Of a stretch of DNA of 64,000 nt, positions 8,978 through 43,761 are shown piece by piece. The stretch is from Mobula hypostoma (Eukaryota). Position 1 is the stretch's first letter, and every line of letters begins with the position of its first letter. The translations under genes were made by a program, and so were the position numbers. Where the stretch lies: NCBI RefSeq assembly GCF_963921235.1, contig NC_086097.1, forward strand, positions 168,084,001-168,148,000. Reading direction: 5' to 3'. The notes under the pieces are model-generated. The model was not told the origin of the DNA and did no database searches. It saw nothing but the letters and a program-made list of their open reading frames with translations.

Positions 8978-9151
8978 CTAATTAATGAATGAATTATATT
9001 TTGTCAATTTTGTGACCACCGGATATGATGGCTGTATAAATGGAAGCCCATGTTTTTCACACATCTTTTGTAGACACTTCTCATATTCTTTATTCAGTTT
9101 AGCAGATTCCTGCAGAGCATACTTCAAATCTTCAATTTCTTCAAAGAACCC
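8978..9151 (-). CDS. Coiled-coil gene, last exon (GFFEEIEDLKYALQESAKLNKEYEK...NSFIN*)
   Basis: Acceptor catttacag|GGG, phase 0, TAG at 8978-8980. FFEEIEDLKY matches my recollection of the CEP290 C-terminus. Confidence 0.9.
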   Translation of the reverse strand, partial: GFFEEIEDLKYALQESAKLNKEYEKCLQKMCEKHGLPFIQPSYPVVTKLTKYNSFIN

Positions 9152-10290
9152 CTGTAAATGCCATGCAAAATATAAAATTAGTTTAATATACCAAACATTC
9201 AAGATGCTCATAAAGATCTATTTTTTTTGTTCCAAGGATGAAGAGACAAAAAAGGTTAAAATGGCAATGACAGATTTGGATATTCAAATGTCTTGCTCCC
9301 ACTTGGTCCTTGTTTCAAATCAAACTGTAAATTACATTCTATGGCAACAAAGTATGTTGTAATCTGATCAGATGGAATGGTTAGGTAGCAAATGCCCACG
9401 CTGTGCAACATACTGCCTACTGAGCACAGACAATTTATAACCTACCACTGTTTATAGCAACAGCTTTGCTACAAGGTGATTCCTGATTATTGGATTAGGC
9501 ACAGCATTAAACAAGAACTCAACACGTGCTAATTTCATTACTTTACCTCCATAACAGCAGTTGTACACATATAATTTATAAGAGACTCTTTAAAACAAAA
9601 GCTTTAAGAAATTTATGTCCAAGAATAAGTGAAGAAAAGAATAAATCAGGCAGGGATGATTTGATAATGCTAAATTTCAAAGCTAAAAGTAGATGTGTGG
9701 AGAAAAGATTATTGAAATGAGAGTAGAGGACGTAGCCTGTTCCATCATGGCCAGAGCCCTCCCCACAAATGACAGCAACTACATAAAAGTGCTGCTTCAA
9801 GAAGGTGTTATTGACATCAAGGAACCCCACCATCCAAGTCATGCTCCCTTCCTGCTATTAACATCAGGCAGGATTTAAAAGCCCAGAGTCACAGACCACC
9901 AGGTATAGGAACAGCTGCTCTCCTATTACTGTCAGTTTCTTGAACCAACCTTTACATCCCTAGCCCAATCTCAGCAAACAAACACTACCGACCATCTCCA
10001 ACACTACCATGGACTGGCACCTGACTCTGGTTTTCTTGCACTAATGTTTTGTTTTACACAGTCTTTTTCTTCAGTTTTGTATAATTTATATTTGGCCTTA
10101 GCCCAAAAGTCAACTTTTGGTTTATTTCCATAGATGCTGCCTGATCTGTTGAGTTCCTTCAGCATTCTCTGTGCATTGCTTTGGACTTCCAGAATCTGCA
10201 AATTTTTTTGTTTACAGTATATTTCATGTTTTGCCTGAATCTATGTGCTTGTGATGCTGCTGAAAAGATGTTTCTCATTGCACATAAACT

Positions 10291-10530
10291 GCGGGCAGCA
10301 CAGTAGTGTAGCAGTTAGGGAAATGCCATTTTACAGCCATGGTTTCCTCCTATATTCCAAAGATGTACAGGTTAAGGATAGTGAGTTGTGGACATACCAT
10401 GTTGGCACTTAAAACATGGTTACACTTGCAGGCTGCCCCCAGCACCAACCTCGCCAAACTGATTTGACGCAAGTGCCACATTCACTGTATCTTTCCTTGT
10501 ACATGTAACAAATAAAGCTAACATTTATCT
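10291..10530 (+). mobile_element. tRNA-derived SINE
   Basis: Homologous to the split SINE at 4218-5720. Confidence 0.65.
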
Positions 10531-10630
10531 TGATATAGGACAATAAACTCATGAGCAATGCTAAATGAGGCAGTACATTCAGGAATGTAACCCATAAACA
10601 CAAATGGCACAATACATTTTAACTCAGTTA

Positions 10631-11521
10631 CATAGGAGCAGAATTAGGCCATTTGGCCCATCAAAGTCTGATTCACCATTCCATCATGACTGATTTATTA
10701 GCCCTCTCAACCCATTCACCTGCATTCATCCCATAAACTTTGACGCCCTGATTAATCAAGAATCTATCAACCACCACCTTAAATATACCCAATGAGCTGG
10801 CCCATACAGTCATCTGTAAATGAATTCCACAGATTCACCACTCTCTGATTAAAGAATTTTTTCCTCATATCTGTTCTAAATGGGTGTCCCTTAATTCTGA
10901 GGCTGTGCCTTCTGCTCCTAGACTCCCCCACTATAGCAAGCATCCTCTTCACACCAACTCTATCCAGAACTTTCCATATTTGATAGCTTTCAATAAGATC
11001 ACCCATCATTCTTCTAAACTCCAGCCCGTACAGGCCCAGAGCCGTCAAATACTCCTCATATATTAACCCTTTCAACCCTGGGGGTATTTCTTGTGAATCT
11101 CCTCTGAACCCTCTCTAACACCAACACATTGTTTCTTAGATAAGCAGCACAAAACTGCTCACAATACTCCAAAAGCGGACTGACTGATGCCTTATTAAGC
11201 CTCAGCATTACATCCTTGCTTTGGCATACTAGCCCTCTGGAAATGAATGCTAACATTGCATTTCCCTTCCTTACCACTGACTCAACCCGCAAATTAATCT
11301 TCAGGGTATCCTGCAAGAGCACTCCCAAGTCCTTCTGCACTTTTGATTTTTTAAATTCTCTCCTTTTAAAAAAAAATTGCCCATGCCTTTATTCTGACTG
11401 CCAAAGTACATGTCCATGCACTTCCCTATATTATACCCTATCCATCACTTCTTCGTCCATTCCCCTAATCTAAGTCCTTCTGCAAACACCCTCCTTCCTC
11501 AAAACTACTTGCCCCTCCAAC
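10631..11521 (-). mobile_element. CR1 LINE 3' part (RT C-terminus and 3' UTR), decayed
   Basis: ORFs 10779..11075(-) and 11056..11340(-) carry CR1 motifs. Confidence 0.85.
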
Positions 11522-11523
11522 TA

Positions 11524-11624
11524 CAGTGGTGCTAGAAAGTTTGTGAACCCTGTAGATTTTCTCTATTTCTGCATAAATATGACCTAAAATATGATCAGAT
11601 CTTCACGAGTCCTATAACTAGATT
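11524..11624 (+). mobile_element. Tc1-like terminal fragment
   Basis: TA|CAGTGGTGCTAGAAAGTTTGTGAACCC terminus; no partner end found. Confidence 0.55.
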
Positions 11625-13873
11625 AAACATAGAAACATAGAAAATAGGTGCAGGAGTAGGCCATTCAGCCCTTCGAGCCTGCACCGCCATTTATTATGAT
11701 CATGGCTGCTCATCCAACTCAGAACCCCGCCCCAGCCTTCCCTCCATACCCCCTGACCCCCATAGCGACAAGGGCCATATCTAACTCCCTCTTAATATAG
11801 CCAATAAACTGGCCTCAACTGTTTCCTGTGGCAGAGAATTCCACAGATTCACCACTCTCTGTGTGAAGAAGTTTTTCCTAATCTCGGTCCTAAAAGGCTT
11901 CCCCTCTATCCTCAAACTGTGACCCCTCGTTCTGGACTTCCTCAACATCGGGAACAATCTTCCTGCATCTAGCCTGTCCAATCCCTTTAGGATCTTATAC
12001 GTTTCAATCAGATCCCCCCCTCAATCTTCTAAATTCCAACGAGTACAAGCCCAGTTCATCCAGTCTTTCTTCATATGAAAGTCCTGCCATCCCAGGAATC
12101 AATCTGGTGAACCTTCTTTGTACTCCCTCTATGGCAAAGATGTCTTTCCTCAGATTAGGGGACCAAAACTGCACACAATACTCCAGGTGTGGTCTCACCA
12201 AGGCCTTGTACAACTGCAGTAGTACCTCCCTGCTCCTGTACTCGAATCCTCTCGCTATAAATGCCAGCATACCATTCGCCTTTTTCACCACCTGCTGTAC
12301 CTGCATGCCCACTTTCAATGACTGGTGTATAATGACACCCAGGTCTCGTTGCACCTCCCCTTTTCCTAATCGGCCACCATTCAGATAATAATCTGTTTTC
12401 CTATTTTTGCCACCAAAGTGGATAACTTCACATTTATCCACATTAAATTGCATCTGCCATGAATTTGCCCACTCACCCAACCTATCCAAGTCACCCTGCA
12501 TCCTCTTAGCATCCTCCTCACTGCTAACACTGCCACCCAGCTTTGTGTCATCCGCAAACTTGGAGATGCTGCATTTAATTCCCTCATCCAAGTCATTAAT
12601 ATATATTGTAAACAACTGGGGTCCCAGCACTGAGCCTTGCGGTACCCCACTAGTCACCGCCTGCCATTCTGAAAAGGTCCCGTTTATTCCCACTCTTTGC
12701 TTCCTGTCTGCTAACCAATTCTCCACCCACACCAATTCCTTACCCCCAATACCGTGTGCTTTAAGTTTGCACACTAATCTCCTGTGTGGGACCTTGTCAA
12801 AAGCCTTTTGAAAATCCAAATATACCACATCCACTGGTTCTTCCCTATCCACTCTACTAGTTACACCCTCAAAAAATTCTATGAGATTCGTCAGACATGA
12901 TTTTCCTTTCACAAATCCATGCTGACTTTGTCCGATCATTTCACCGCTTTCCAAATGTGCTGTTATCACATCCTTGATAACTGACTCCAGCAGTTTCCCC
13001 ACCACCGACGTTAGGCTAACCGGTCTATAATTCCCCGGTTTCTCTCTCCCTCCTTTTTTAAAAAGTGGGGTTACATTGGCCACCCTCCAATCCTCAGGAA
13101 CTAGTCCAGAATCTAACGAGTTTTGAAAAATTATCACTAATGCATCCACTATTTCTTGGGCTACTTCCTTAAACACTCTAGGATGCAGACCATCTGGCCC
13201 TGGGGATTTATCTGCCTTCAATCCCTTCAATTTACCTAACACCACTTCCCTACTAACTTGTATTTCGCTCAGTTCCTCCATCTCACTGGACCCTCTGTCC
13301 CTTACTATTTCTGGAAGATTATTTATGTCCTCCTTAGTGAAGACAGAACCAAAGTAATTATTCAATTGGTCTGCCATGTCCTTGCTCCCCATAATCAATT
13401 CACCTGTTTCTGTCTGCAGGGGACCTACATTTGTCTTTACCAGTCTTTTCCTTTTTTACATATCTATAAAAGCTTTTACAGTCCGTTTTTATGTTCCCTG
13501 CCAGTTTTCTCTCATAATCTTTTTTCCCCTTCCTAATTAAGCCCTTTGTCCTCCTCTGCTGAACTCTGAATTTCTCCCAGTCCTCAGGTGAGCCACTTTC
13601 TCTGGCTAATTTGTATGCTTCTTCTTTGGAATTGATACTATCCCTAATTTCTCTTGTCAGCCACGGGTGCACTACCTTCCTTGATTTATTCTTTTGCCAA
13701 ACTGGGATGAACAATTGTTGTAGTTCATCCATGCAACCTTTAAATGCTTGCCATTGCATATCCTTTAAGTCAATCCTTTAAGTGTCATTTGCCAGTCTAT
13801 CTTAGCTAATTCACGTCTCATACCTTCAAAGTTACCCCTCTTTAAGTTCAGAACCTTTGTTTCTGAATTAACT
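11625..13873 (-). mobile_element. Young 5'-truncated CR1 LINE with near-intact RT
   Basis: 464-aa ORF 12004..13398 with KSPGPDG, NYRPVSLTS, DFQKAFD, GVPQGSVLGP and FADD; (TTTCTATG)n tail. Confidence 0.95.
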
Positions 13874-13880
13874 ATTAATT

Positions 13881-15172
13881 AAGAACATAAGAACATGATA
13901 ACACATGAAATAGGAGCAGGAGTAGGCTATTCGGCCCATCAAGCCTGCCCCCCCATTCAATAAGATCATGGCTGATCTGTCCGTAAACTCGGCTCCATCT
14001 ACCTGCCTTTCCCCCATAACCCTTAATTTCCCTACTATGTAAAAATCTATCTAACTGTATCTTAAATATAATTAGTGAAGAAGCCTCAACTGCTTCCCTG
14101 GGCAGAGAGTTCCACAGATTCACCACTCTCTCGGAAAAACAATTTTTCCTCATCTTCGTATGAAACCTTCTCTCCTGAATCTTGAGGCAATGTCCCCTAG
14201 TTCTAGTGCCACCTACCAATGGAAACAACTTTCCTACTTCTATCTTATCTATCCCTTTCAAAATTTTGTATGTTTCTATAAGATCCCCTCTCATTCTTCT
14301 GAATTCCATAGAGTATAGTCCCAGGCAACTCAATCTCTCCTCATAGGTTAACCCCTTCATCTCTGGAATCAACCTGGTGAACCTCCTCTGCACTACCTCC
14401 AAAGCCAGTACTGCATATCCTTCCTCAAGTATGGAGACCAGAACTGCACACACTTCTCCAGGTGCGCCTCACCAGTACCCTATATAGTTGCAGCATGACC
14501 TCCCTGCTCTTGAATTCAATCCCTCTAGCAATGAAGGCCAACATTCCATTTGCCTTCTTAATAACCTGTTGTACCTGCAGGCCAACTTTTTGCGATTCAT
14601 GCACAAGCATTCCCAAGTCCCTCTGCACAACAGCATGCTGCAATCCTTCACCATTTAAATAATAATCTGCTCTTCTACTATTCCTTCCAAAGTGGATGAT
14701 CTCACATTTACCAACATTGTATTCCATCTGCCAGACCTTGACCCACTCACTTAACCTATCTATATCCCTCTGCAGACTCTCCACATCTTCTGTATAATTT
14801 GCTTTTCCACTCAGCTTAGTGTCATCAGCAAATTTTGCTATGCTACACTCAGTCCCCTCTTCCAGATCATCAGTGTAAATGGTAAACAGCTGCCGGCCCA
14901 GCACCAACCCCTGTGGCACCCCATTCACCACCAACTGCCAACCGGAGAAACACCCACTTATACCAACTCTCTGCCTTCTATTGGTTAACCAATCTACTAT
15001 CCATGCCAATACACCTCCTCCGACTCCATACATCCGTATCTTATTTATAAGTCTCTTGTGCAGCACCTTATCGAACGCCGTCTGGAAATCCAAGTATACG
15101 ACATCCACCTGTTCCCCTCTATCCACTGCACTCATTATGTCCTCAAAGAACTCCAGTAAGTTTGTCAAGAAA
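13881..15172 (-). mobile_element. 5'-truncated CR1 LINE (second subfamily)
   Basis: RT motifs in ORFs 14425..15321(-) and 13875..14453(-); (TTCTTATG)n tail. Confidence 0.9.
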
Positions 15173-15595
15173 GATTGAATACTTTGGAACTTTATTCCCT
15201 TAAATGTAGAAGACTGAGAGGAGATTTGATAGAGGTGTACAAAATTATGAGGGGTATAGATAGGGAAAATGCTATCAAGATTTTTCCACTGAGATTGGGT
15301 GAGACTACAACTAGAGGTCACAGGTTAATGGTAAAAGGTGAAATGTTCAATGGGAACACAAAGGGAAACTTCTTCACTCAGAGAGTGGTGAGAGTGTGGA
15401 ATGAGCCGCCAGTGCAAGTGGTGGATACAATTTCAATTTCAGTGTTTGAGAGAAGTTTGGATACCTACATGGATGGGAGGGGTATAGAGGGCTGTGGTCC
15501 AGGTGCAGGCTGATGGGACTAGGCAGTTTAAATGGTCTGGCATGGACTGGATGGGCCGAAGGGCCTGTTTCTGTATCATAGTTTTCTATGATTTT
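15173..15595 (+). mobile_element. CR1 3' end in the opposite orientation
   Basis: ORF 15175..15513(+) LYSL..RRLRGDLIEVYKIM. Confidence 0.85.
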
Positions 15596-15974
15596 ATCAC
15601 GTGTGCTGCTCAAGTAATTCCTATGTGTGCCACTTCTACTTATTACAAGTGCTCAAATTTGTAAAGCAGAGACTATTTCAAAATGCATGACGGCATGCCG
15701 ACCAGCTATCAGCTCCCTGTGACTAACAACATCCTAAAAGTTGTGCAATCAAACACAGAAAACCAGTTGTAATTCTGAGCACCACACACTAAATGCTGGA
15801 GGAACTTAGCAGGTCAGGCAGCATCTATGGAAATAAATAGTCCATGCTTCTGGCCGAGACCCTTCATCAGCTGTAATTATGTACATTTTAAGTAAGGAAA
15901 CCATAATTAGCTTGGTAATTTGAACATAGAGTGCTCATAAACTCCAGCTTTTTGTGATACGTCACCATAACAGT

Positions 15975-18660: not shown

Positions 18661-18720
18661 TCAGACTATGCTGCATCAAAATCTCTATATGTGTATCACC
18701 AAACACCGAATTTACTGCAC

Positions 18721-18834
18721 TTGGAGGAACTCAACAGGTCGGGCAGCATCCGTGGAAATGATTAGTCAACGTTTCGGGCCAGAACCCTTCGAGTGCTGCT
18801 TTGACCCCAGCATCTGCAGAGTATATTGTGTTTA
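18721..18834. mobile_element. Short Penelope-like insertion with truncated hammerhead and 13-bp TSD
   Basis: TSD GAATTTACTGCAC at 18708-18720 and 18835-18847. The minus strand reads GAAGGGTTCTGGCCCGAAACGTTGACT. Confidence 0.7.
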
Positions 18835-19067
18835 GAATTTACTGCACATAAATGGTCATGAATCATTAACTCTCAATCACACCAACAAAATGGGATATCA
18901 ATTTTCATGGTATAGAATATGTTTTATCATTGAAGTGTGCATCCCAGTGGTTAAAATCGATACTTTCTGGGATTGAAGGACAGTATCTGTGGTGACCAAC
19001 CAAGTGTCAGTAACACAATTAACCGGTATGGAAGGGGTACAGCAAGTAAGTTGTGAAAAATCAATAC

Positions 19068-19162
19068 CTTATCCAGTCCAGCCAACTCATTCTTCAAGCT
19101 GTTTTTCTCCTTTGTAAGTCTGTCCTTTTCCTTTTGCAGTCTTTCTACCATGAAGAGGAGCT
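19068..19162 (-). CDS. Coiled-coil gene, exon 6 (LLFMVERLQKEKDRLTKEKNSLKNELAGLDK)
   Basis: Acceptor ttttctttag|AG and donor AAG|gtattg. 95 bp, phase 1 to 0; lies within ORF 18951..19178(-). Confidence 0.9.
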
Positions 19163-22100: not shown

Positions 22101-22844
22101 ACATTCAAAGTTGATTTCGCCACGAGAAGATGGTACAACAATATCAACAATCATTTGGTCAAGCTACAACTCAAAATAGCATTAGACATTATCATCTCCA
22201 AAAGCACGTGGCAGACTCTTGAGACCCCACCAGTCCAATGAACTCATCACTGTGCCTGCAGTGTATCGGGTGGAACCTTTCAGCTATTTGGTGAACTGCA
22301 CTGCATGGTGAAGTTGTTAAGTACTCACATTGGGCAGCTCCAATAGTCAACATCAAGAAAGCCAACAGTAGTGAAGACTTCTCAACTATTCTCAATGCAG
22401 TTTTGGAGACACATCAATACCCACATCAGTACCGACAGATCTCTTCACCTCATTGAACCATGGTCACTACTTTGCAAAGTTAAACTTGGCTGAAATCTAC
22501 CTCCAAGAAGTGGCAGAAAATTCACAGGAGCCTCTCACCATTACAACACATAAAGGGTTATGTGTTATTTTTCCTCCTCTGTCTATCTTTTAAAGGTGGC
22601 TCCTTCAACATTCCAGCAGCTTATGGATACCATGCTAAGTGGATATTGACAGTGTTACCTCAACAACACCGTTACAATAGGCACAGATCAGAAAGAACTG
22701 AACCTACTACAAGACTTTGAATTGTGACTTCTGGCAGAAAGATGCAGCCTCCTTCAAGTATCTGGGGTTCATCATAGGTGAGCATGGTCATTGCTCAGAT
22801 CCAAAACATCACTGCTATCTTAAAGATGCTTCTACCATCAGATA

Positions 22845-26905: not shown

Positions 26906-29891
26906 AGAGTCAGAGAGTCATTAAGAAGTACAGCACATAAGCAGGCCCTTTGACCCATCTAGTCCATGCCAAAACCATTTAAACTGCCTACTCCCATCAA
27001 CCTGCACCAGGACCATAGCCCTCGATATCCCTACTATCCATGTACTTATCCAAACTTCTCTTAAATGTTGAAATCGAGCTCACGTGGATCACTTGTGCTG
27101 GCATTTTATTCCACACTCTCACAACCCTCGGAGTGAAGAAGTTTCCCCTCATGTTCCCTTAAACTTTTCACCCTTAAGCCATGACCTTTGCTTGTAGTCC
27201 CATCCAACCTCAGTGGAAAAAGCCTGCTTGCGTTCACCCTATCTATACCCCTCATAATTTTGATACCTCTGTCAAATCTCCTCTCAATGTTCTATGTTCT
27301 AAAGAATACAGTCCTAACTTATTCAATCTTTCCTTATAACTCAGGTCCTCCAGACCTGGCAACATCTTTGTAAATTTTCTCTGCACTCTTTCAACCTTGT
27401 TTACATCTTTCCTATAGGTAGGTGACCAAAAATGCACACAATACTTCAAATTAGGCCTCACCAACATCTTATACAACTTCAACATAACATTCCATCTTCC
27501 GTACATAATACATTGACTTATGAAGGCCAATTTGCCAAAAGCTTTCTTTTCGACCCTATCTACATGTGACGCCACTTTCAACAAGTTAGTACCCTTACTT
27601 CTACCACACTCCTTAGTGCCCTACCCTGGTTAATACTACCGAAGTGCAAAACCTTCCACTTGTCTGCATTAAATTCCATCTGCCATTTTTCCAGTTGATG
27701 CAGATCCCTCTGCAAGCCATGATAGCCTTCCTCACTGTCCACTGCACCACCAATCTTGGTGTCATCCACAAATTTGCTGATCCAGTTAACCACATTGTCA
27801 TCTAGATCACTGATATAGATAACCAACAACAAAGGACCCAGCACAAAAGGCACACCACTAGTCACAAGCCTTCAGTCAGAGAGATAACCCTCTACTACAA
27901 CTCTCTGGCTTCTCGCACAAAGCCAAAGTCTAACCCAATTTACTACCTCATCCTGAGTGCCTAGTGACTGAACCTACTTGACCAGCCTCCCATCAGGACT
28001 TTGTCAAATGCCTTACTAAAGAGCACATAGATAACATACACTGCCTTGCCTTCATGCACCTTCCTGGTAACTTCCTCAGGAAAAAATCTAATTAGTCATG
28101 ACCTACCATGCACGAAGCCAGGCTGACTATCTTATATCAGTCCATGTCTAATAAACTCTACTCAGGCTTCCAGCCAGGTACAAGTATCAATTATAACCGA
28201 CATTTCGATGACGAACTTTGCCATCTCCTTTTTGAGGGTTCCTCCTCGTTGTTAGGTTTCTTGGTTTTTCTGTCAGCCCCTTTAAGAGCTTAGTCTCCAA
28301 GTATCCTGAAACCTTATCCTTAATAATAGACTCCAACACTTTCCCGACCACTGAAGTTAGGCTAAATGGCCTATAATTTCCTTTCTTTAGTCTCCCTCCC
28401 CTCATAAAGAGAGGGGTGACATTTGCAATCTTCCAGTCCCCTGGACCCATACCAGAATCAAGTGGTTCTTGAAAGATCATGACCAATGCATTCATCACCT
28501 CTTCAGCAACCTCTGTCAGGACTCTGGGATGTAGTCCATCTGGTCCAGGTGACTTATCCACCTTAAGACCTTTCAGTTTGCCTAACACTTTTTCCTTTGT
28601 AATAGCAATGGCACTCACTCCTGCTTGCTGATACTCTTGGACCTCTGGCACACTGCTTGTGTCTTCCACAGTGAAGACAAATGCAAAGTACCCATTAAGT
28701 TCATCTGCCATTTCTTTGTCCCTCATTACTATCTCACCAGCATCATTTTCCAGGTGCCTAATATCAATTCTCACCTCCCTTTTACCCTTTATATAACTGA
28801 AAAAACTTATGGTATCCTGCTTTATATTATTGGCTAGTCTGCCCTCATATTTAATCTTTTCCCTTCTTATAGCTTTTTTAATTGCCTTTTGTTGGATTTT
28901 AAAAGCTTCTCAATCATCCAACTTCCCACTCACTTTTGTTACCTTATATGCCCTTCCCTTGGAAGTCTTCAACTTCCCTTGTCAGCCATGTTTGCCTACC
29001 CCTGCCATTTGAGAACAACTTCTGTGGGACAGATCTATCCTCTGCCTTGTGAACTTTCCCAGAAGCTTCAGGTGCCTCTTTTCTGCCCTCATCCCACCAG
29101 TATCCCCCTCCAATCCACCTGGACAAGCCCCTCTCTCATGCCTCTGCAATTCCTTTTATTCCATTGTGATACTGATACATGTGACTTGTGCTTCTCCCTC
29201 TCAAACTGCATATGAATTCAATCATATTATGATCGCTACCTCCTAAGGGTTCTTTTACGTTAAGCTCCCTAATGAGATCCGGGTTATTACACAACACCCA
29301 ATCTAAGTTAGCCTTTTCCCGAGTACAGTTACAATTGTGTCATTATCCTTATTACATGCCTTTTCCAGATCCCTTTGCAATCTCAACCCCACATCTTGGA
29401 TACAATTTGGAGGCCTACATATAATTCCCATGTTTTTTTTACCCTTGCAATTTCTTAACACCACCCACAAAGATTCAACATTCTCTTACCTTATGTCATC
29501 TATTTCTAAAGATGTAATTCCATCTCTTTTCAATAGAACCACACTACCGCCTATGCCTTCCTACCTGTCCTTTCGATACAGAGTATATCCTTTGATCTTA
29601 AGTTCTCCACTATGGCCTTCTTTCAGACACAACTCACTGATGCCCACAACGTCATACCGACTAATCTCTAACTGCACCACGAGTTCGTCCACCTTATTCT
29701 GAATGCTACACACATTTAAACACAGCACCTTCAGTCCTGTGTTCTATACCTCTTTGAATTTTGCCTCTGTGGTACAGTTTAACTTTTTGCTCTTGCACCA
29801 TTTGCACCAAATCATTGGCTTGTCCTTCCTTACATTCATGTTATACCCATCATCTACGTGTAAACCTGCTGGCTCATCCTCAGCTCTATCA

Positions 29892-32975: not shown

Positions 32976-33011
32976 AGTCCTGCCGAAGGGTTTCGGCCTG
33001 AAACGTCAACT
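32976..33011 (+). ncRNA. Minimal hammerhead motif (mutated)
   Basis: AGTC-CTGCCGA-AGGGTTTCGGCCT-GAAA-CG-TC-AACT. Confidence 0.65.
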
Positions 33012-35992
33012 GTACTTTTTCCATGGCCTACTGAGTTCGTCCAGCATTTTGTGTGTGTTGTTTGGCAGACTCAGTGCTAGAGACCTGACCGACCACTGTG
33101 ACTTTCCTCTTGTAGGTCAACCCCTAACCACTTCCCCCTCCCGATAGTATCCAAAGTGATATACCTGTTATTGAGGAGGATGGCCACAAGGGTACTCTGC
33201 ACTGGCTCCTTAACCCCTTTCTCCTTCCTGACTCTCACCCAGCTTCCTGCACCCTGCACCTTGGGTGTGACTACCTCTCTATATATCCTATCTATCACTC
33301 CTTCAGCCTCCCAAATTATCCAGAGTTCATCGAATTTCAGCTCCAATTCCTTAAATGCATATTATTAAAAGCTGCAGCTGGACGCATTTTTCAGTTATAG
33401 TCATCAGGGACACTGGAGGTCTCTCTGCCTTCCCACATTCCGCAAGATGAGCATTCCACTATCCTGCCTGACATGTCTATTCTCCTGAGCAGATATAAAT
33501 AAGGGAAGGAAAAGAAACCTAGAGCTCTTCTTTGCTTTCTCTGACTGAAGCACTTTTTGCTGAAGCCTCGAAGAGCCTCAAGTTCACCACTCTGACTGTC
33601 CACTATGACAATGGCCACTGCACTTGCCCCTGCTTTCCTTTAATTTGCTCTTGCTGATCAATCCCAAACATGGATTGGTCGCTGGTCAGAACTCAATTAC
33701 ACTGCAGAAACCAGCTGCTGCCTTTTTCTACTCAGACAATGGACCTGAGTGAAATCCCCTTCACTCAAACTTCCAATGTCTGGATTGGTCACTGGTCAAA
33801 GCTTTAGGTTAATGATAATTAGGTAGAAATGTCTTCAGACAGGCCTGTTTGAAGTCCCCAACAATGATTTGCAAGGCGTTGGATTAGGCTCTCAGTACGT
33901 CAAGTGCCTGCTTGAGGGAGGTATTATGACAAGTCTAAAGCAGCCAACACCTATTGCTTGGCTGTCAACCAATCCCAGGCTGACCTTTTCTGATTGGTCA
34001 TTGTTCTGGACAATGTTTCAAATGCTCTTCATGAACTTTAGATAGTCATGCTCTGACTGCACTGTTGATTTTAGCTGTGTGGTTTGCTGAATAAAGGTAT
34101 ATTCCGTCTTTGTTCTATCTCCAGGCTTAGGAGTAGTTACAGACAAACGAACACAACAAAGGGGATCAACATTGCTTAAAAAGTCTGACACTATAAACAG
34201 ACTTACAGAATGTACAGAATTAGGATGCAGATTTTTTTTTGTAAAACTGTATAAGGCTGTGGTCCTGTGGTAAATTCATACCTCAGATACTTTGTAGTGT
34301 TTTGGTCTCCTTCATAAGGCTGATGGATTCCTGGAATAAGAGCATTGTCCATGAAAAAAGTGCAAGCAGAGTGGGTATTTACTCTCTGAAGTGCAGGAAA
34401 GAGAAGTGACTTCACTGAAACATAAAACATTCTGATTGAGCTAGACTGAAACCCCTGCTGGAGGAAATTTAAACATGAGAATTCTCTGTCCGAGATACTT
34501 GTGAATAATGCCAAGTCACTAAGTTCTACTCAGATCACATATAATTACTGTAAACCCCCTACATTCAAGGTTTCACAAGTTTGTGGCCAACTCTTCCATG
34601 GTTATCACAACTTCTAGATACAAGAACAGTGTAATACAAGCGGATTAACGGAAGAAGCTGCTGACCTATTCTAGCTATTTAGTATTAATTACCTCCAGCT
34701 GCCTTTCCCATCCAGCCCCTTGATTTTAGCAGCAACCATCCTTCACAATACTTCCATTGAGTGTACTGACACTTACTGTACAACCAGTGCAGCTGTGTGA
34801 AGAATGACAGCTGGCTGGCTACTTAAACAGCAGTGGTTTCCACATAGCAGGGAGCCACTTAACATAAGTGGTCTGAAAATACTCACCATATTTATATGAA
34901 AAATGATTTGTTCCTCAATAGGTATAGATATTACGGTTTAGTATTGGGACAAGACAAATGTGTGGAGAACATAATAAGCCATGTGGAGATTTATGCAAAA
35001 GTGGCCATGAATCACATAATTTTTGGGATCCACAGCAATTTCTGGAATTCCCTCCTACAAAAGTTAAGGGTATACGGTAGATCTTATGACCTATGAAGGG
35101 GTGGAGAGGTGAGGTGGTAGTTTGTGAAGGAGTGATGTCATGGGTTTATGGGAATTGAGCAAAAAGTGTATGAACAGATCACAACAAATGGCAGAGCAGA
35201 TTCAAAAGAACTCATGGTCAACTCCCGGTCCTATTTTTTTCTTAACTTCATGTTCGTTTTGTTTGGAAAAACTATATAGCCTTTAGAACATTAAACGATT
35301 CATTAAAGGATGGAAAAAGAGCTTTGATGAATAATTGTTTTTAGGCTGTACCAGTAGCACTGCAGTTTTCTTTTGATTACATTAATAATTTACAGAGTAT
35401 ATGGTAAAGTTTTGAAATTTGCAACTGAAATAACTTAGAGTACAGTTCAGTAAATCAGGAATGGATTTCAAGAGGACAGAGACAATAGGCAGACACAAGA
35501 TCACACGAAGAATTTAGAACCCATCACTTCACAGGACAACTGGAAGTAGGTTCAACAGCATTCAAATCAAAAATGGATAAATCTTGCAAGAAAAGTGGGA
35601 AGGAATGGGAGGTTGTAGGACTAACTGGATTGTTCTTCAAAAAAAAAACCGAAGCAAGCAAAATGGTTCAAATGGCCACTTTATGCCATTGTTTGAGCAA
35701 TGCTAGATGTTCTAGACTTGGTTTATGCCAAGTGAGCTTTTTCCAGCAAGGACGTCATTAATAGTCTCTCTGCCCTTAGGAAATTTCTCAGCAGCTATAC
35801 CTATGCTTGTTCACCAGTCAAAATGCATAATGCTTTCTTTATAGTATTCTCTCCCCTATCTATCTTATATGGTTAGTCAGCACTCCAATTATACGTGAGA
35901 AATGGACATTTGAGTTAGTTGATGTACTGTATAGCTACTTCCTCTTACAGGTGAAAATCTCCAGGAGAGAAAGTATCCAGTTGAAACCTCAC

Positions 35993-36167
35993 CAATGTTA
36001 ATGCAGCCAGGTGAGCAAGCACTGGCACCACCAGACATACGTTTGCAAGATGTAGAGTCTTGTTCCAGCATAGACATTCTTTGCTTTCTCTCCATTTGTG
36101 TCTGCTGCAGCTGCTGAAGTTTTTGCTTACAGGTCATTAGCTGTAGCTCTAACTCATGATTCATGAT
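35993..36167 (-). CDS. Coiled-coil gene, exon 5 (IMNHELELQLMTCKQKLQQL...PGCINI-E)
   Basis: Acceptor ttttccag|ATC and donor G|gtgagg. 175 bp, phase 0 to 1; lies within ORF 35889..36194(-). Confidence 0.88.
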
Positions 36168-37194
36168 CTGGAAAATGCAAGAGAGAGGAACCAAAACATT
36201 TCGAAATGAATGAATAGCAAATGTACTTAAAATTAAAAATCCAAATAAAATTAATGGTCATTACTCTTTTCTATTTGACTTTGAGTCAAACATCAACATC
36301 TGCTTAAGTGGGAAAATAGCAGACATTCTTATGCAAACTTTTTCCATAGTCAGTTAACATCCAACATAGAGATCAATGTAAATTTAAATCCAACATTGAG
36401 TGAAAAAATCAAAAACTGCAGATGCTAGAAATCTAAAGTAAAAACAAAAAATACTGGAAATACTCAGCAGGTCACAATAGAAACAGAGATAATGTTTCTT
36501 TATCCGAACATTCTGACCCTTTTGTAGAACATTCAACATCCGTTTGCTTAGTCTACAACTTCCTTTATACTTTTATCAAAAGATGTTGGAAGTTTTGGGA
36601 TAAATAATTCCCAATACAGATATCATGTCCATTTATTCCTGAATTTTTATACATATTTATGGTGCTCAAATAGTATATCTGGTTGAAATCATATTTTTTA
36701 AATTTTGGTGATCTAAGGTCGACTTCCTCTACGGCAGCAGTTATTCTGAAAGCACAGTAAAGCACAGGTACCTGAGGTTCATGTCTGCTATAAATGAAAC
36801 TATACTTTCATTTCAAAGTATAGTTTCAAAGGATCTATACTCTCCCATTGCAGGCATCTTGTGTGTAGAAAATTTCCCATCTTCATACCATATTCTGCTG
36901 CCTAGACCTCAAACTCTGGAATTCCCTCTTGAAACTTCTTTTCCTTTTCCAACTTTCAATCCCTGTTTAAGGTTCTTGAAACCTCCCTCTTTACTGGTTG
37001 TATAATCCTAATGAGACTTATCAACAAATGTTAAGATACTGTACCTACAATGACTGTAAGTGATAAGATGTGAGATAAATACAACATATTGTTGAGTAGT
37101 ATTTTAAAGTAGGGTGTTAATGCTGAACCTGAAACAAGGTACTCTAATCTGAAAAGATTAACTGCGAGAGTAGAAGAAGCTGGATTACTGCAAA

Positions 37195-37850
37195 CAGGAG
37201 AAGATGGCGGCGCGATGGCAGCACACGTGGCCTCGCTGGTGATTGATATCTGTAATTGTCAAGTAGGGGACCATGCACAACTCTGATTTGATGGAGACAG
37301 ACGTGAGAGTACGGAGGAACATCTGGAAAACTTCTGAAATGTCCGCTTCGCTGCCGCTGCTACTGTGTGGTAACCGGAATCTCCAGAGCAGAAGGCCCGA
37401 ATCCTCGGCTTTACTTGTTTCTATGGCCGGGGCGAGGTCGAAGGCGCTCGGGAGGCTGTATCAGAGGGGCTGGTCGGAGGCTCGAAGTTTTTGGACGGAC
37501 GGACTCAGCGTCGGCTGTGGTTGGCTGCTTCCAAGGCAAGTTGACGGTGCCTGGGGGTTTATGTCAGGGAGTTTCTCCCTTTTGCCACCTGCTATCGGGG
37601 ACTCAGGAGTCGATCGACTCGGGGACTTTGAGGCTATTTTTACCGTGCCCATGGTTTGTTCTTCATCAAATTATGGTATTGCTTTGTACTGCTGTAACTA
37701 TTTGTTATGATTATGTGGTTCTGTCAGTGTTAGTCTTTGGTTTGTCCTGTTTTCTGTGATATCACTCCAGAGAAACATTGTATCATTTCATAATGCATGT
37801 ATGCATTTCTAAATGACAATAAAAGAGGACTGAGTCTTCTCATAATCTAC
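37195..37850 (+). mobile_element. CpG-rich non-autonomous retroelement (YY1-like head, LINE-like AATAAA tail)
   Basis: Starts AAGATGGCGGCG and ends ...ATGACAATAAAAGAGG...ATAATCTA; CpGs retained; no recognisable protein. Confidence 0.55.
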
Positions 37851-38630
37851 TTGCAATCCAGGGGTTAATCAAGCAGTCTTGATTTTTCAGTAAGATTACT
37901 GGTCATAACCAACATTGTTCAAAAATGTTAAAACTCAAATTAGGAAAAGACTGGCATTTAGCTACGGGATAAAGACAAATTCAAAATGCTGAAAAATATG
38001 GAGATACAGGAATATAGCAAGACTGGTGCAAGGGAGACATAGGCTCACTCTAGTTTTGAGATCAGCGTCGTTCCACTAAATGCAGTCTAATAAAAAGCAC
38101 ATTTAGGTAAGTACATGAGAAATTGTATTATATTACTAGAGAAGAACAAAACATTGAATTAAAATACAATATCAGCACTAAAGAGCAAAGCAGTCAGATT
38201 GCTAGAAAATTCAGGATTAGTGTTCCTCACGTTATGGAATGTTTGGAAATCCCAAAAATAGCATGTTGAGAAACAGGGAATGCTGACATCCATGAAAAGC
38301 AACTGAGATTTATGAATCATCTTTAAATGGGAAGAAAATCAATGTAAGATGTTTTACAAAAGACATTCATAGGTTTTTTTCATTTTACTGCTGCTAACAA
38401 TATAACTAATTCCACCCATATGATTGGGCTAACATCTATAGCCAAAATTCCTTGTATGAAGGAATCAATAAACAAACCAGTGACCAAAATAAACTTGTAG
38501 TCCCGTTTTCAATCAAATTCAGTTTTGATTCTAAATCTAGGGTACACTTGTATTTTAGACATCACAATATTTCACGTGTAAATATTCACTGTACTATGAG
38601 TAAGGCATGACACAAAAATGCACAACTCAC

Positions 38631-38724
38631 AGTGAGCTTCGAAATAGTTTCACTCTGCTCTTTGATGGTTTTAAGTTCTTCTTCATATTGTTTCTGAAGG
38701 GCATTGTATGTCTGCAATAGCTGA
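38631..38724 (-). CDS. Coiled-coil gene, exon 4 (QLLQTYNALQKQYEEELKTIKEQSETISKLT)
   Basis: Acceptor ttttcccag|T and donor ACT|gtgagt. 94 bp, phase 2 to 0. Confidence 0.88.
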
Positions 38725-40139
38725 CTGGGAAAATAATGGCATTATCTTTAGTTTAAGAACTAATACTTACATGATTAAGAAGTCCAATATTAAAATTATC
38801 ATATTATCCAGATGTCACCTATGTATCCCCAAGTGCCAGACACAATTTTTGTTATCCTGAACAACATTCATTCCACAACCAGCACCACTAAAAACAGACA
38901 ATTGATCATTTAGTTCAGTGTTGTTCCAGCAATGTTTGAAGTAGAGAAAGTTCAGATTAATTAAATATGTGCTGTGTAGTTTGATACACCTATAAGATAA
39001 TATGTTATGTAATTTTTCTCTTGGCATGCACAAATTCTCAGAACAGGCATCTTAAAGAAAATAGAAGAGGATAGGAACATTCAGAATTTAAAGCTTATTC
39101 CATCATTCAACTAGGTAAAAGGCGATACATTATTGTTCATTTACCCATCAACTTTATTTGACAGTACAGAACTGAACAAGTCCTTTAGCTCACGATGTCT
39201 ATGCAATCACGATGCCAAATGAAACTAATCCCATCTGCCTACACATGATCCATATCCCTCCATTCTCTGCAGAGTGACGTGCCTGTCCAAATCCCTCTTA
39301 AACGTCACTATCATATCCACTTCCACCACCTTCACTGATAGTGCGTTCCACACGCCTACCACTCAGCATGAAAAACTTGCTTCGCACATCTCCTTTAAGC
39401 TTGCTCTGCCTTACCTTAAACCTATGCTCTGCGTATAAAACATTCTCACTCTGGGGAAGAAAGTATGGGTTTTGAATATTTAAATGATCCCATAGTCTTT
39501 GATGGAGTCATAAAGCAATACTGCACAGAAACAAGCCCTTCGGCCCATCCAGTCTGTGCCAAACTGTTACTCCACCTAGTCCCTTGGAACACAGCTCTCC
39601 AGACCCCTTTCATCCATGTACTTACTCAAATTTCTCTTAAGTGTTTTAATCAAAATTGTATCCATCACTTCTGCTGGCAGCCCATTCCACATTCTCACCA
39701 CCCTCTGAGTGAAGAAGTTCCACCTCAGATATTTTAAAATTTCACCTATGTCTACCTCCCGTTGTGTGGGAAAAATGTCTCCAGATTTCACTGCTCACAT
39801 ATCTTCACTTCTTTTCCCATAACAATCATTCTCAATTGACTTTAGAGACAAGAGGCGCATAAATTGATATTTATTCGATATTAATTACTTAAAAGAGTTG
39901 GCACTTTGTTTAGATGATTCTTGAGTATTTTACTCAGAAGTATATGAGTACTGCAAAGATTTCAAGTGAAGAATTGTTGCTGATGGTCAAAGAAATCATG
40001 GGTCACAAATCAAAATTAATGCATCAAACTGCTTTAAAAAGGAAACTATTCCTGGTCTCTTAATGAAACATTTCTTTTGTGTAGTTTCTACCATTGGTCA
40101 AATTTTGATTACTTTTGTTATGATCAGATAAATACTCAC

Positions 40140-40223
40140 TTCCTCTTTACATCAGCCTTTGTAGCATTGTCCTCTTTAAAGCCAGTTCTATGCCATTGCT
40201 GAGGTTCCGTCTGTATTTGAGCA
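40140..40223 (-). CDS. Coiled-coil gene, exon 3 (AQIQTEPQQWHRTGFKEDNATKADVKR-N)
   Basis: Acceptor tttataaag|T and donor AA|gtgagt. 84 bp, phase 2 to 2, in frame with both neighbours. Confidence 0.82.
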
Positions 40224-40909
40224 CTTTATAAATGTATAAAAATATGAAGTTTAATATTAATCCTTTGATGCTTTCAAAATAGTCCAACTACAGTCAGAAT
40301 CAACCTTTATCTATACGTCTTCTATAAACATTTTGCAGATGGTTACTTCTAATAAGACAGGCATAATGACAGGCGTAAGGATATGTGGTTTCCCATAACA
40401 CCACCATTTTTTCTCAAAAATCTGTAGAGTCACAAGGAAAAAAAAAGATTTCAAGATTAAGAGATAGAGAAAGGTGATGGTGGCCAGGAACTGCGTTGTT
40501 TTCCATTTGAAGACACAGTGAGCACCAAGGCTATTCTGGTAGGGGAGGAAGGAGGAGACGCTTATACAAGTATATTTGACATACATCATTAAAGTGGCAC
40601 AAAGCATCGGAAGACCTAACCAGTATGTATTTATAGTTAAAGCAAAAGCTTGTAAGATGAACAAAACATTTTAAAGAAAGAAGGCCTAGTAACATCAGTA
40701 GGGTCAAACATGAGAACTACTTAAGGAGGAGCATATAAAATCAGCTACAAGTAATTTAAATTAAACAATGACATACTTATAATTTGTAGAGTGTGGCAAT
40801 ACTAACTGTGGGAATTTGGATGGACAGAACTTTCCTAACAGGACCAAACCCCACCCTTCTATAACAGAAAGTCAGTCGTCTTGTCCTCACACTGAATCCC
40901 ATTTTGTAA

Positions 40910-40987
40910 ATGAAGATGTATCCTATATGAAGATGCATCCTACATGAAGATGTATCCTACATGAAGATGCATCCTACATGAAGATGT
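40910..40987 (+). repeat. 17-bp minisatellite ATGAAGATGYATCCTAY, about 4.6 copies
   Basis: Read directly; position 10 alternates T/C, giving a 34-bp period. Confidence 0.95.
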
Positions 40988-41537
40988 TCTCTCAGGAGTA
41001 ATGAGAGAAAATTACTCTCCCTGTGGTACACAGAATACAGGCAAGAGATTTTGATTGTATTGTTGCCAGAAAAGAAAGTTTTGTTGTTTTAATTAACTAG
41101 AAATCAATATTATAGTTTGATAAAATATTGTATAAGTATTAAGAGACTACCCTGTCAGTTTCCAAGCATATTTTTAAATGGCCTCCCACAGTAAACCGAC
41201 AGCCTGTAATATTTGCCCTTAGTAAACTAGTTCATTTTCTTTGTACATTGTTCGTTTAGTTATTATTTTCACATAAACTCCATAACAGTGAATTTTTATT
41301 CCCTATCTCAAACCTTTCAGTAGTGATTTTTGAAATGAATAAGGATGATTTTTTGTTATTCAAACAGCTGTAATGCAGGGGTTCACTGTACTTATATATT
41401 TTTCTGTCCCTTGGATAGAATTTTAGGGGAGCTGTTTTATATTAAATTGAGAATGAGGTTTATACAGTAATAAAAAACACCATTAAAACAGTATGTTTAC
41501 ACAGGTGGAGAAAGAAGGATGCTTTTAGGGTTCTCAC

Positions 41538-41677
41538 TCTCTGGTGGTTACAAAATCCCTCATCAGCTGCTGCAAACGAAGTTTTTCCTGGATTTCTAAA
41601 AGCTGAGTCTCCAGCAGTTCATTCTTCTGACGGTGTTTCTTGAGTTTTCTTTGCAAGTGCTCATTTTCAGCACAAAG
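41538..41677 (-). CDS. Coiled-coil gene, exon 2 (LCAENEHLQRKLKK...DFVTTR-D)
   Basis: Acceptor tgtttctgtag|CTT and donor GA|gtgaga. 140 bp open frame with heptad-like E/K/Q/L content; phase 0 to 2. Confidence 0.88.
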
Positions 41678-41795
41678 CTACAGAAACACAAGATATTTGT
41701 GACAGCACTCTTGGGGGGGTACCATAAATTGTTTTGGTTACCCTGCTATCGAAAGGGTGCAGAAAGGTTGCATTAAAATGTTAGTGGGAATAGTT

Positions 41796-43623
41796 GGGAA
41801 AGAGGAGGAGGAGGAGGGGTGAGGTGGGAGGGGGAAGGGGAGGGGGAGGGTGGGAGGGGGAAGGGGAGGGGGGAGGGTGGGGAAGGGGAGGGGGGAGGAG
41901 GGGGAAGGGGAGGGGGGAGGAGGGGGAGAAGAGGGGGGAGGAGGGGGAGAAGAGGGGGGAGGAGGGGGAGAAGAGGGGGGAGGAGGGGGAGAAGAGGGGG
42001 GAGAAGAGGGGGAGGAGGGGGAGGAGGGGGAGGAGGGGGAGGAGGGGGAGGAGGGGGAGGAGGGGGAGGAGGGGGAGGAGGGGGAGGAGGGGGAGGAGGG
42101 GGAGGAGGGGGAGGAGGGGGAGAAGAGGGGGAGGAGGGGGAGAAGAGGGGGAGAAGAGGGGGAGAAGAGGGGGAGAAGAGGGGGAGAAGAGGGGGAGGAG
42201 GGGGAGGAGGGGGAGGAGGGGGAGAAGGGGGAGGAGGGGGAGAAGGGGGAGGAGGGGGAGAAGGGGGGAGGAGGGGGAGAAGGGGGAGGAGGGGGAGAAG
42301 GGGGAGGAGGGGGAGAAGGGGGAGGAGGGGGAGAAGGGGGGAGGAGGGGGAGAAGGGGGGAGGAGGGGGAGAAGGGGGGAGGAGGGGGAGAAGGGGGGAG
42401 GAGGGGGAGGAGGGGGAGGAGGGGGAGAAGGGGGGAGGAGGGGGAGAAGGGGGAGGAGGGGGAGAAGGGGGGAGGAGGGGGAGAAGGGGGAGGAGGGGGA
42501 GAAGGGGGGAGGAGGGGGAGAAGGGGGGAGGAGAGGGGAGGGAGAAGGGGGGAGGAGAGGGGAGGGAGAAGGGGGGAGGGGAGGGGAGGGGGAAGGAGGT
42601 GGAGGGGGAGGGAGGGGGAAAATAAGGGGGAAGGTGAGGGGGGAAGGAGGGGGAAGGTGAGGGGGAGGGAGGGGGAAGGTGAGGGGGGAGGGAGGGGGAA
42701 GGTGAGGGGGGAGGGAGGGGGACGGTGAGGGGGGAGGGAGGGGGAAGGTGAGGGGGGAGGGAGGGGGAAGGTGAGGGGGGAGGGAGGGGGAAGGTGAGGG
42801 GGGAGGGAGGGGGAAGGTGAGGGGGGAGGGAGGGGGAAGGTGAGGGGGGAGGGAGGGAGGGGGAAGGTGAGGGGGGAGGGAGGGAGGGGGAAGGTGAGGG
42901 GGGAGGGAGGGAGGGGGAAGGTGAGGGGGGAGGGAGGGAGGGGGAAGGTGAGGGGGGAGGGAGGGAGGGGGAAGGTGGGGGGGGAGGGAGGGGGAAGGTG
43001 GGGGGGGAGGGAGGGGGAAGGTGGGGGGGGAGGGAGGGGGAAGGTGAGGGGGGAGGGAGGGAGGGAGAGGAGGGAGGGAGAGGGGGGAAGGAGGGAGGGA
43101 GAGGGGGGAGGGAGGGAGGGAGAGGGGGGAGGGAGGGAGGGAGAGGGGGGAGGGAGGGAGGGAGAGAGGGGGAGGGAGGGAGGGAGAGAGGGGGAGGGGT
43201 GGAGGGGGGTGGGGGAGGGAGGGGGAGGGGTGGAGGGGGGTGGGGGAGGGAGGGGTGGAGGGGGTGGGGGAGGGAGGGGTGGAGGGGGTGGGGGAGGGAG
43301 GGGAGGGGTGGAGGGGTGGGGGAGGGAGGGGGAGGGGTGGAGGGAGGGGGAGAAGAGGGGGAGGGAGGGGGAGAAGAGGGGGAGGGAGGGAGGGGGAGAA
43401 GAGGGGGAGGGAGGGAGGGGGAGAAGAGGGGGAGGGAGGGAGGGGGAGAAGAGGGGGAGGGAGGGGGAGAAGAGGGGGAGGGAGGGAGGGGGAGAGGGGA
43501 AGAGGGGGAGGGAGGGAGGGGGAGAAGAGGGGGAGGGAGGGAGGGGGAGAAGAGGGGGAGGGGAGGAGGGGAGGAGGAGGGAAAGAGGAGAGTAGGAGGG
43601 TGGGGGAAGGGGAGGGGGAGGAA
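41796..43623 (+). repeat. About 1.8 kb G-rich polypurine compound tandem repeat
   Basis: Blocks of (GAGGAGGGG)n, (GAGAAGAGGGG)n and GAGGGGGAAGGTGAGGGGGGAGG-type units; almost no C. Confidence 0.97.
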
Positions 43624-43728
43624 ATTCTGCAAAGTGGGGCTAGGAACAGAGAGAGGGAGGGTCGGAAAATAGAGAGCGCGCTTTTTGGAGAGTATTGGAA
43701 CTCGGGTCCGACCCCCTACTTCACTCAC

Positions 43729-43761
43729 CCAAAGACACCGGTGGATGGACGGAATGTCCAT
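43729..43761 (-). CDS. Coiled-coil gene (CEP290 C-terminus-like), coding exon 1: [11 protein letters not shown]
   Basis: ATG at 43761 in a good Kozak context (ataATGG), inside a CpG-rich island. Strong donor TGG|gtgagt at 43728; phase 0 matches the exon 2 acceptor. Confidence 0.7.

What the first reader, a model, noticed from the sequence alone, without database searches (positions are those of the whole stretch)
8978..43761. Small 264-aa coiled-coil gene carrying a CEP290-like C-terminal module
Seen: seven exons (33, 140, 84, 94, 175, 95 and 174 bp; 795 nt) splice in frame with canonical sites and no internal stop. The ORF track shows only fragments of it. The end, LKNELAGLDKGFFEEIEDLKYALQESAKLNKEYEKCLQKMCEKHG, closely resembles the CEP290 C-terminus as I recall it (LKKELENFDPSFFEEIEDLKYNYKEEVKKN...), but CEP290 is roughly ten times longer. 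Inference: a separate, probably uncharacterised ciliary/centrosomal 'mini-CEP290-tail' protein that could partner or compete with CEP290.
Basis: partly seen in the sequence, partly recalled or inferred. Interest (0 to 1): 0.75.

Follow-up and report, generated by a model that had tools for sequence, protein, structure and literature searches.

The report
Ancient CEP290-tail protein with LC8 motif
A spliced ray gene encodes a 264-residue coiled-coil protein that shares only its tail with the ciliopathy protein CEP290, belongs to an apparently unstudied family reaching back to choanoflagellates, and carries a conserved motif predicted to bind the dynein light chain LC8, so it is likely a small dimeric adaptor at the base of cilia.

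Summary
Seven GT-AG exons on the minus strand give a 264-aa protein identical to RefSeq XP_062896912.1 (Mobula hypostoma, auto-named 'CEP290-like'). Contigs from 4 runs of one study join exons 3-4-5; 3 of 4 also join exons 2-3.

It is not a CEP290 fragment. Only residues ~174-245 match full-length CEP290 (33-39% identity), and the tails split from CEP290 on one tree branch (92/79). The ~250-aa family runs from choanoflagellates, ctenophores and corals to sharks, reptiles and birds. No named hit is a mammal, teleost, frog, arthropod or nematode. It has no Pfam family or solved relative, and no study was found.

New here: an LC8/DYNLL-type motif (R-D-x-x-[VTI]-Q-T-[ED]) between two coiled coils in 128 of 148 full-length members (4.2 expected). 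A complex model puts it in the LC8 groove (0.81 vs best control 0.41; textbook pair). Its core lies on an in-frame exon skipped in 25 vertebrate protein models.

Best reading: an LC8-clamped dimer with a CEP290-type tail at the ciliary base. Location and tail partner are inferred. Earlier scan notes held nothing on it.

The parts
43729..43761 (-). Exon 1 coding part (aa 1-11), start codon at 43761, in a CpG-richer stretch
   Evidence: family N-terminal motif M-x-x-P-x-I-H-x-C
41538..41677 (-). Exon 2 (140 nt): coiled coil 1, ending in R57-D58, the -5/-4 positions of the LC8-type motif
   Evidence: joined to exon 3 in 3 of 4 runs
40140..40223 (-). Exon 3 (84 nt, phase 2-2, the only symmetric internal exon): disordered linker with the core of the LC8-type motif
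   Evidence: skipped in 25 of 333 fetched protein records
40202..40222 (-). Codons of A59-P65, the I-Q-T-E anchor of the LC8-type motif
   Evidence: motif in 128 of 148 full-length members; residues 54-64 modelled in the LC8 groove
38631..38724 (-). Exon 4 (94 nt): first half of coiled coil 2
35993..36167 (-). Exon 5 (175 nt): rest of coiled coil 2 and a low-confidence linker; an internal donor at 36040 gives the 248-aa isoform X2
34281..34331 (-). Extra cassette of RefSeq isoform X3 (216 aa), which shifts frame and loses the CEP290-like tail; not seen in the laid runs
   Evidence: tblastn of P0095; zero depth there
19068..19162 (-). Exon 6 (95 nt): first helix of the CEP290-like tail
8978..9151 (-). 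Exon 7 coding part (174 nt): FFEEIEDLK core and end of the CEP290-like tail, stop codon
8160..8977 (-). Probable 3' UTR of ~0.8 kb with AATAAA at 8187

Best explanation
This expressed gene encodes the ray member of an ancient family of ~250-aa coiled-coil proteins that end in a CEP290-type tail and carry a conserved motif predicted to bind LC8, so the protein likely works as an LC8-clamped parallel dimer whose paired tails would dock at the ciliary base on the same kind of site as the CEP290 C-terminus. Steps: (1) gene, splicing and family: shown. (2) Tail homology to CEP290, limited to about the last 70-130 aa: shown. (3) Layout coiled coil 1, disordered motif, coiled coil 2, linker, tail helices: predicted (AlphaFold, heptads). 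(4) An LC8 dimer binds two copies of residues 54-64 and aligns the flanking coiled coils: predicted, about 0.8. (5) Skipping exon 3 removes the LC8 site in frame, giving LC8-bound and LC8-free forms: the isoform models exist, a regulatory role is inferred, about 0.4. (6) Location at the basal body or transition zone through the tail: inferred from CEP290, about 0.55, untested.
For: Splicing. Family from choanoflagellates to birds with a conserved start motif. Tail homology. The N-terminal 140-aa profile scores under 13 bits on the five named CEP290 records. Tail tree: one change between 42 small-type and 24 CEP290-type rows, support 92/79, in 93% of bootstrap trees. Motif: 128 of 148 full-length members, 111 of them matching strict [TVI]Q[TV][DE]; 4.2 expected after shuffling. 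It fits the LC8 consensus and sits in disorder next to coiled coils, as PMC3078936 describes (pLDDT<50 at residues 57-76). Echinoderm versions closely resemble the validated SON motif in Table 2 of PMC6607443. Ctenophore members have a K-x-T-Q-T a few residues downstream; two named choanoflagellate proteins carry V/S-Q-T motifs. Complex model: ipSAE 0.81, best of 3 controls 0.41 (mark reached by 51 of 78 solved and 2 of 108 mismatched pairs), runs agree in at least 90% of contacts, partner pLDDT 55-59, residues 54-64 against LC8 59-70. LC8 clients are enriched in the ciliary-centrosomal system (bioRxiv 10.1101/2023.09.15.557927). Large CEP290 C-terminal fragments localise to the transition zone or centrioles (PMC7793253, PMC10914257, PMC3063982).
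Against: No localisation, tissue or interaction data exist for any member. The CEP290 fragments that localise are 590-715 aa and include the microtubule-binding region, which this protein lacks; no paper read maps a function to the last 70 residues. LC8-peptide is a textbook pair, so the pass may come from memory; the tool's calibration excludes peptides and disordered chains, and the LC8 used is a stand-in identical to a solved LC8. Three IQT-anchor peptides are non-binders in PMC6607443, and the -3 position here is Ala/Val/Ser, not the consensus Lys. 7 of 148 full-length members lack the motif; members are related, so the counts are not independent. The apparent absence in mammals, teleosts and frogs, which all have cilia, means it is not a core ciliary part. 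Exon 3 is the only exon that can be skipped in frame, so skip models may be tolerated noise; no exon-3 skip was seen in the 4 laid runs. The tree branch is unstarred, rests on 76 columns, and unnamed rows were grouped partly by their own signature.
Confidence: 0.5

Rival explanations
1. Direct CEP290 regulator: the tail forms a mixed coiled coil with the CEP290 C-terminus or competes for its partner, tuning the closed/open state or docking of CEP290.
For: Tail homology with invariant F-F-x-E-x-E-D-x-K in both families. CEP290 C-terminal fragments are reported to self-associate (cited second-hand in PMC10914257 and PMC3063982).
Against: Residues after the core differ consistently (Y/F-A-L-Q in the small family, Y-N-Y in CEP290), which suggests distinct pairing or partners. 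Self-association was not mapped to the last 70 aa in what was read. No heterodimer model was run.
Confidence: 0.2
2. Accessory part of motile cilia or sperm flagella (an LC8-linked element at radial spokes, dyneins or the central-pair base) rather than of the transition zone.
For: Many LC8 clients are radial-spoke and dynein-arm proteins. Present in choanoflagellates, ctenophores and aquatic invertebrates; no named arthropod or nematode hit.
Against: No match among PDB chains by profile (best E 0.012, generic coiled coils) or fold. Mammals, teleosts and frogs keep motile cilia yet gave no hit. Tissues of the runs are unknown.
Confidence: 0.15
3. Non-ciliary LC8 client, such as a cytoplasmic or pericentriolar coiled-coil adaptor, in which the CEP290-type tail has been reused for another partner.
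For: LC8 has over 100 clients with diverse roles (PMC6607443). The gene seems dispensable in several ciliated lineages. Contigs carry it in all 4 laid runs, whose tissues are unknown.
Against: The tail core is the best-conserved part of the protein (12 invariant columns, 11 in the tail) and has stayed CEP290-like since before animals. All named carriers are ciliated organisms (own knowledge).
Confidence: 0.13
4. A mis-predicted fragment or decaying duplicate of CEP290.
For: Databases name many members 'CEP290', 'CE290 protein' or 'CEP290-like'.
Against: Own conserved start motif, own 170-aa N-terminal region with no CEP290 match, intact frames from choanoflagellates to birds, spliced contigs, separate tree branch.
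Confidence: 0.02

Closest known systems
CEP290 (NPHP6), extreme C-terminal module
   Same: Residues ~174-250 align with the last ~80 aa of CEP290 from chytrid, sea urchin, Ciona and lamprey (33-39% identity; HHalign 99.2%, weaker alignment back to residue 122): coiled coil, acidic aromatic core, second helix, terminal Gly.
   Different: 264 aa against ~2,300-2,470 aa for the chytrid and lamprey records. No significant match to the rest of CEP290 (other segments E>0.1). A different signature after the core. An LC8-type motif that the CEP290 records lack in their C-terminal part.
LC8/DYNLL client proteins with a TQT-type motif beside a coiled coil (e.g. OFD1, CEP152, EML3, SON motif)
   Same: Motif consensus, place in a disordered linker flanked by coiled coils, and modelled binding in the LC8 groove.
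   Different: No sequence homology to any of them was found; one motif per chain, on a skippable exon; binding not measured.
[quoted passage not shown]
   Same: These are the same gene; the model here is identical to XP_062896912.1.
   Different: The name is automatic. No Pfam family covers it. The literature searches found the name only in gene lists, and those entries may be true CEP290.

Membership tests
CEP290 orthologue | Very long (~2,000-2,500 aa) coiled-coil chain homologous along its length | tested here: not met
   264 aa; significant similarity only at the C-terminus
CEP290 orthologue | Pfam CEP290 coiled-coil region or any curated CEP290 domain | tested here: not met
   0 of 33 members reach a Pfam cut-off among the 25 of 27 families shown; none shown is a CEP290 family
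CEP290 orthologue | Groups with CEP290 tails on a tree | tested here: not met
   Separate side of one branch, 92/79, unstarred, 76 columns
CEP290 C-terminal module (shared domain) | Coiled coil, then D-x-x-F-F-[ED]-E-[ILV]-E-D-[LM]-K core, second helix and terminal Gly at the chain end | tested here: met
CEP290 C-terminal module (shared domain) | Targets to the transition zone or centriole; depends on CEP162/CEP131 | not testable with these tools
   Shown only for large CEP290 fragments (PMC10914257, PMC7793253)
LC8/DYNLL client | Motif [D/S]-K-x-[T/V/I]-Q-[T/V]-[D/E] | tested here: met
   D58-A59-Q60-I61-Q62-T63-E64: matches at -4, -1, 0, +1, +2 but not the -3 Lys; 128 of 148 members
LC8/DYNLL client | Motif in a disordered segment near a dimerising coiled coil | tested here: met
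   pLDDT<50 at 57-76 between helices 6-56 and 77-150; heptad a/d hydrophobic-or-Asn fraction 0.76-0.89
LC8/DYNLL client | Binds in the LC8 dimer groove | tested here: inconclusive
   Model supports it (0.81 vs 0.41) but this is a textbook pair and a prediction; needs ITC or pull-down

The most novel reading that the evidence does not exclude
CEP290 has an ancient small sibling, born before animals by duplication of its last domain, that was lost in mammals, teleosts, frogs, flies and worms and so was never seen. It is an LC8-switched dimer that occupies or licenses the docking site of the CEP290 tail at the ciliary base, and a vertebrate-wide cassette exon turns the LC8 clamp on and off. It defines the CEP290 tail as a stand-alone domain whose partner can be found with a 250-aa protein.
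Probability: 0.3. Interest if true: 0.75.

Novelty: new variant of a known kind. Interest (0 to 1): 0.55.

Why it matters
[quoted passage not shown] A natural 250-aa protein that has kept exactly this module since before animals shows that the module is a unit of its own and offers a small handle to find its partner. The family seems absent from the main model animals, which would explain why it is unstudied. It can be studied in chicken, sea urchin, cnidarians or choanoflagellates. Its members are also widely mislabelled as CEP290 in databases, which can distort presence/absence studies of transition-zone genes.

Full report
OBSERVATION. A search by exon length and phase recovered exons at 43761-43729, 41677-41538, 40223-40140, 38724-38631, 36167-35993, 19162-19068 and 9151-8978. 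All six introns are GT..AG and the 795-nt frame gives 264 aa. [quoted passage not shown] The gene is therefore already predicted in RefSeq. Isoform X2 uses a donor 48 nt inside exon 5. Isoform X3 adds a cassette near 34281-34331 and loses the tail.

EXPRESSION. Of 24 runs listed, 4 held all sampled words of the last exon; none is on record as RNA. These 4 (one study) were laid on 34000-41760. Contigs join exons 4-5 and 3-4 in 4 of 4 runs and exons 2-3 in 3 of 4, at the predicted bases. Junctions 1-2, 5-6 and 6-7 were outside the stretch. The same contigs carry 1066-1109 further letters beyond exon 5, which would fit exons 6 and 7 plus a UTR ending at 8138-8181, near AATAAA at 8187 (inferred from length). 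In run X3 the contig leaves exon 3 for 200 letters outside the stretch, without exon 2. The joining base fits exon 1; that join would shift frame and stop after 22 aa (the letters themselves were not shown). Tissues are unknown.

FAMILY. The last exon found 47 relatives of 117-302 aa. A 33-sequence profile found 83, a vertebrate profile 172, of which 120 were listed, and the full HMMER scan of 1.84 billion representatives 629 at E<=0.001, of which 150 were listed. Named members come from sharks, rays, bichirs, sturgeon and paddlefish, coelacanth, lungfish, caecilians, turtles, a crocodile, squamates, birds, amphioxus, hemichordates, echinoderms, molluscs, an annelid, a nemertean, a flatworm, corals, Trichoplax, Mnemiopsis and three choanoflagellates. 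No named hit is a mammal, teleost, frog, arthropod or nematode. Of 164 representatives and unnamed proteins compared with a named set, 24 were nearest to a vertebrate member: 20 at 67-100% identity to a bird, turtle, crocodile, squamate, bichir or sturgeon, and 4 weak at 25-49%. None looks like a missing vertebrate lineage. Absence is still not shown: 52 hits were unlisted, candidates were capped at 7999, and no genomes were searched. Two bird models named as MPPE1 isoforms and one sturgeon model fused to MPPE1 suggest the gene lies just upstream of MPPE1; MPPE1 is not seen in this window.

RELATION TO CEP290. Long hits are CEP290 of Spizellomyces (2285 aa), lamprey (2470), sea urchin (1978) and Ciona (1330). 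Pairwise, only residues ~163-258 align significantly (33-39%, E 3e-14 to 8e-10); all other segments have E>0.1. Profile against profile gives 99.2%, E 2.9e-19, aligning 122-252, with high confidence only from about residue 176. A profile of the first 140 residues scores 3-13 bits on the five named CEP290 records, against 35-206 bits on named animal members and 4-34 bits on the three choanoflagellate proteins. After the shared core the small family reads Y/F-A-L-Q and CEP290 reads Y-N-Y. A tree of 66 tails (76 columns) separates 42 small-type from 24 CEP290-type rows by one change, support 92/79, unstarred; unnamed rows were grouped partly by this signature. With choanoflagellate members, the duplication most likely predates animals (inference; the tree is unrooted).

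ANATOMY. AlphaFold gives helices 6-56, 77-150 and 171-240, with low-confidence linkers at 57-76 and 152-168 (mean pLDDT 78, pTM 0.27). Heptad positions a/d are 76-89% hydrophobic or Asn. There is no Pfam family at cut-off and no solved relative by sequence or fold. Of 148 full-length proteins (from 333 fetched; 200-345 aa, both ends scoring), 128 carry a [TVIMSCA]-Q-T-[EDVAI] motif there, 111 of them strict [TVI]Q[TV][DE]; 13 are models that skip this exon and 7 lack it. Shuffling the same regions gives 4.2. These sequences are related and include isoforms. The motif matches the LC8/DYNLL consensus [D/S]-K-x-[T/V/I]-Q-[T/V]-[D/E] except at -3, and such motifs sit in disorder beside coiled coils (PMC3078936, abstract and passages). 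Table 2 of PMC6607443 lists a near-identical SON motif as a binder but three IQT peptides as non-binders (passages).

COMPLEX TEST. An LC8 reading frame from a metagenome locus (L118), identical to the solved LC8 of PDB 1rhw, was folded as a dimer with two copies of residues 44-80. The score was 0.81 against a best control of 0.41 (mark reached by 51 of 78 solved and 2 of 108 mismatched pairs; on eukaryotes 71 of 105 and 2 of 126). Runs agreed in at least 90% of contacts and partner pLDDT was 55-59. Residues 54-64 lie on LC8 59-70. The alignments were not used, peptides are outside the calibration, and LC8-TQT complexes are solved, so the pass shows likeness rather than binding. PMC12057147 (passages) reports that AlphaFold scores separate LC8 binders from non-binders with about 8% false positives and 20% false negatives, using another model and other thresholds.

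CASSETTE EXON. The motif straddles the exon 2/3 junction and its core is on exon 3 (84 nt, phase 2-2). A junction lacking this exon appears in 25 of 333 fetched records, from sharks, a skate, coelacanth, paddlefish, turtles, squamates and birds. This would give an LC8-free form. Against a regulated switch: exon 3 is the only internal exon that can be skipped in frame, these are computed gene models, and the 4 laid runs showed no such skip.

MECHANISM. Most likely, an LC8 dimer clamps two chains at residues 54-64, aligns coiled coils 1 and 2 in parallel and presents two CEP290-type tails. By homology the tails would dock at the ciliary base. In fly, the C-terminal 590 aa of CEP290 go to the transition zone through Cep131-Cep162 (PMC7793253 passages; PMC10914257 passages and section 7). 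Human CEP290 1765-2479 is paracentriolar in zebrafish (PMC3063982 passages). A cat allele predicted to remove the last 157 aa gives retinal disease (PMC10107307 abstract; PMC3063982 passage). None of these isolates the last 70 residues, so the location step is inference. LC8 clients are enriched at cilia and centrosomes (bioRxiv 10.1101/2023.09.15.557927, abstract and section 11). Confidence is 0.5 for the whole chain. Rivals: direct CEP290 regulator 0.2, motile-axoneme accessory 0.15, non-ciliary adaptor 0.13, fragment or pseudogene 0.02.

WHAT IS KNOWN. '290 kDa-like' with 'centrosomal protein' found 3 papers; in the 2 opened, the name occurs once in a gene list. 'CEP290-like' with 'cilia' found 0, and MPPE1/IMPA2/synteny 0. 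Two searches on CEP290 paralogues and evolution were seen as listings only and showed no title on this family. The library lacks most subscription papers and no supplements were read. It is not a CEP290 orthologue (three features tested, not met). It does carry the CEP290 C-terminal module and meets the sequence criteria of an LC8 client.

VERDICT. A real, expressed, database-predicted but apparently uncharacterised gene. It defines an old family that joins a CEP290 tail to an LC8-type motif: a new variant of a known kind, interest 0.55. The sequence evidence is strong; the cellular role is inferred.

Noticed in passing
window:41802-43622: Intron 1 (2051 nt) is almost entirely a G/A-only tandem repeat of about 1.8 kb, which produces long spurious Pro-rich and Gly-rich ORFs. 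It could form G-quadruplex or triplex structures and may bear on exon-2 skipping; its length may be an assembly artefact.
   Followed up: no
window:40223-41677: One of 4 runs has a contig going from exon 3 to sequence outside the laid stretch without exon 2, probably exon 1, which would give a 22-aa truncated product. In two other runs the exon-2 contig has about half the depth of the main one.
   Followed up: partly
window:12004-13455, 14425-15324, 28187-28909, 55851-58231: Reverse-transcriptase-like ORFs of LINE type (CR1-like by recall) in introns 5 and 6 and upstream; the longest is open for 483 aa.
   Followed up: no
window:1805-2209: ORF resembling the C-terminal part of a hAT-type DNA transposase (recalled resemblance).
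   Followed up: no
window:37108-37884 and 39439-39956: Intronic repeats with contig depth in the hundreds to thousands in all 4 laid runs, i.e. abundant repeat families from many loci.
   Followed up: no
P0079, P0263, P0148: Two bird models named MPPE1 isoforms and a sturgeon model fused to MPPE1 contain this protein, pointing to a conserved place just upstream of MPPE1. Other orthologues are named CEP290, CE290, AKAP9-like, paramyosin-like or cancer-associated gene 1-like.
   Followed up: partly
P0090, P0124, P0129, P0137, P0139, P0156, P0033: Seven unnamed full-length members lack the LC8-type motif by the pattern used, so some lineages may have lost or altered it.
   Followed up: no
window:1-8900 and 43900-64000: No other protein-coding gene was recognised in the window by a crude exon scan.
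   Followed up: partly
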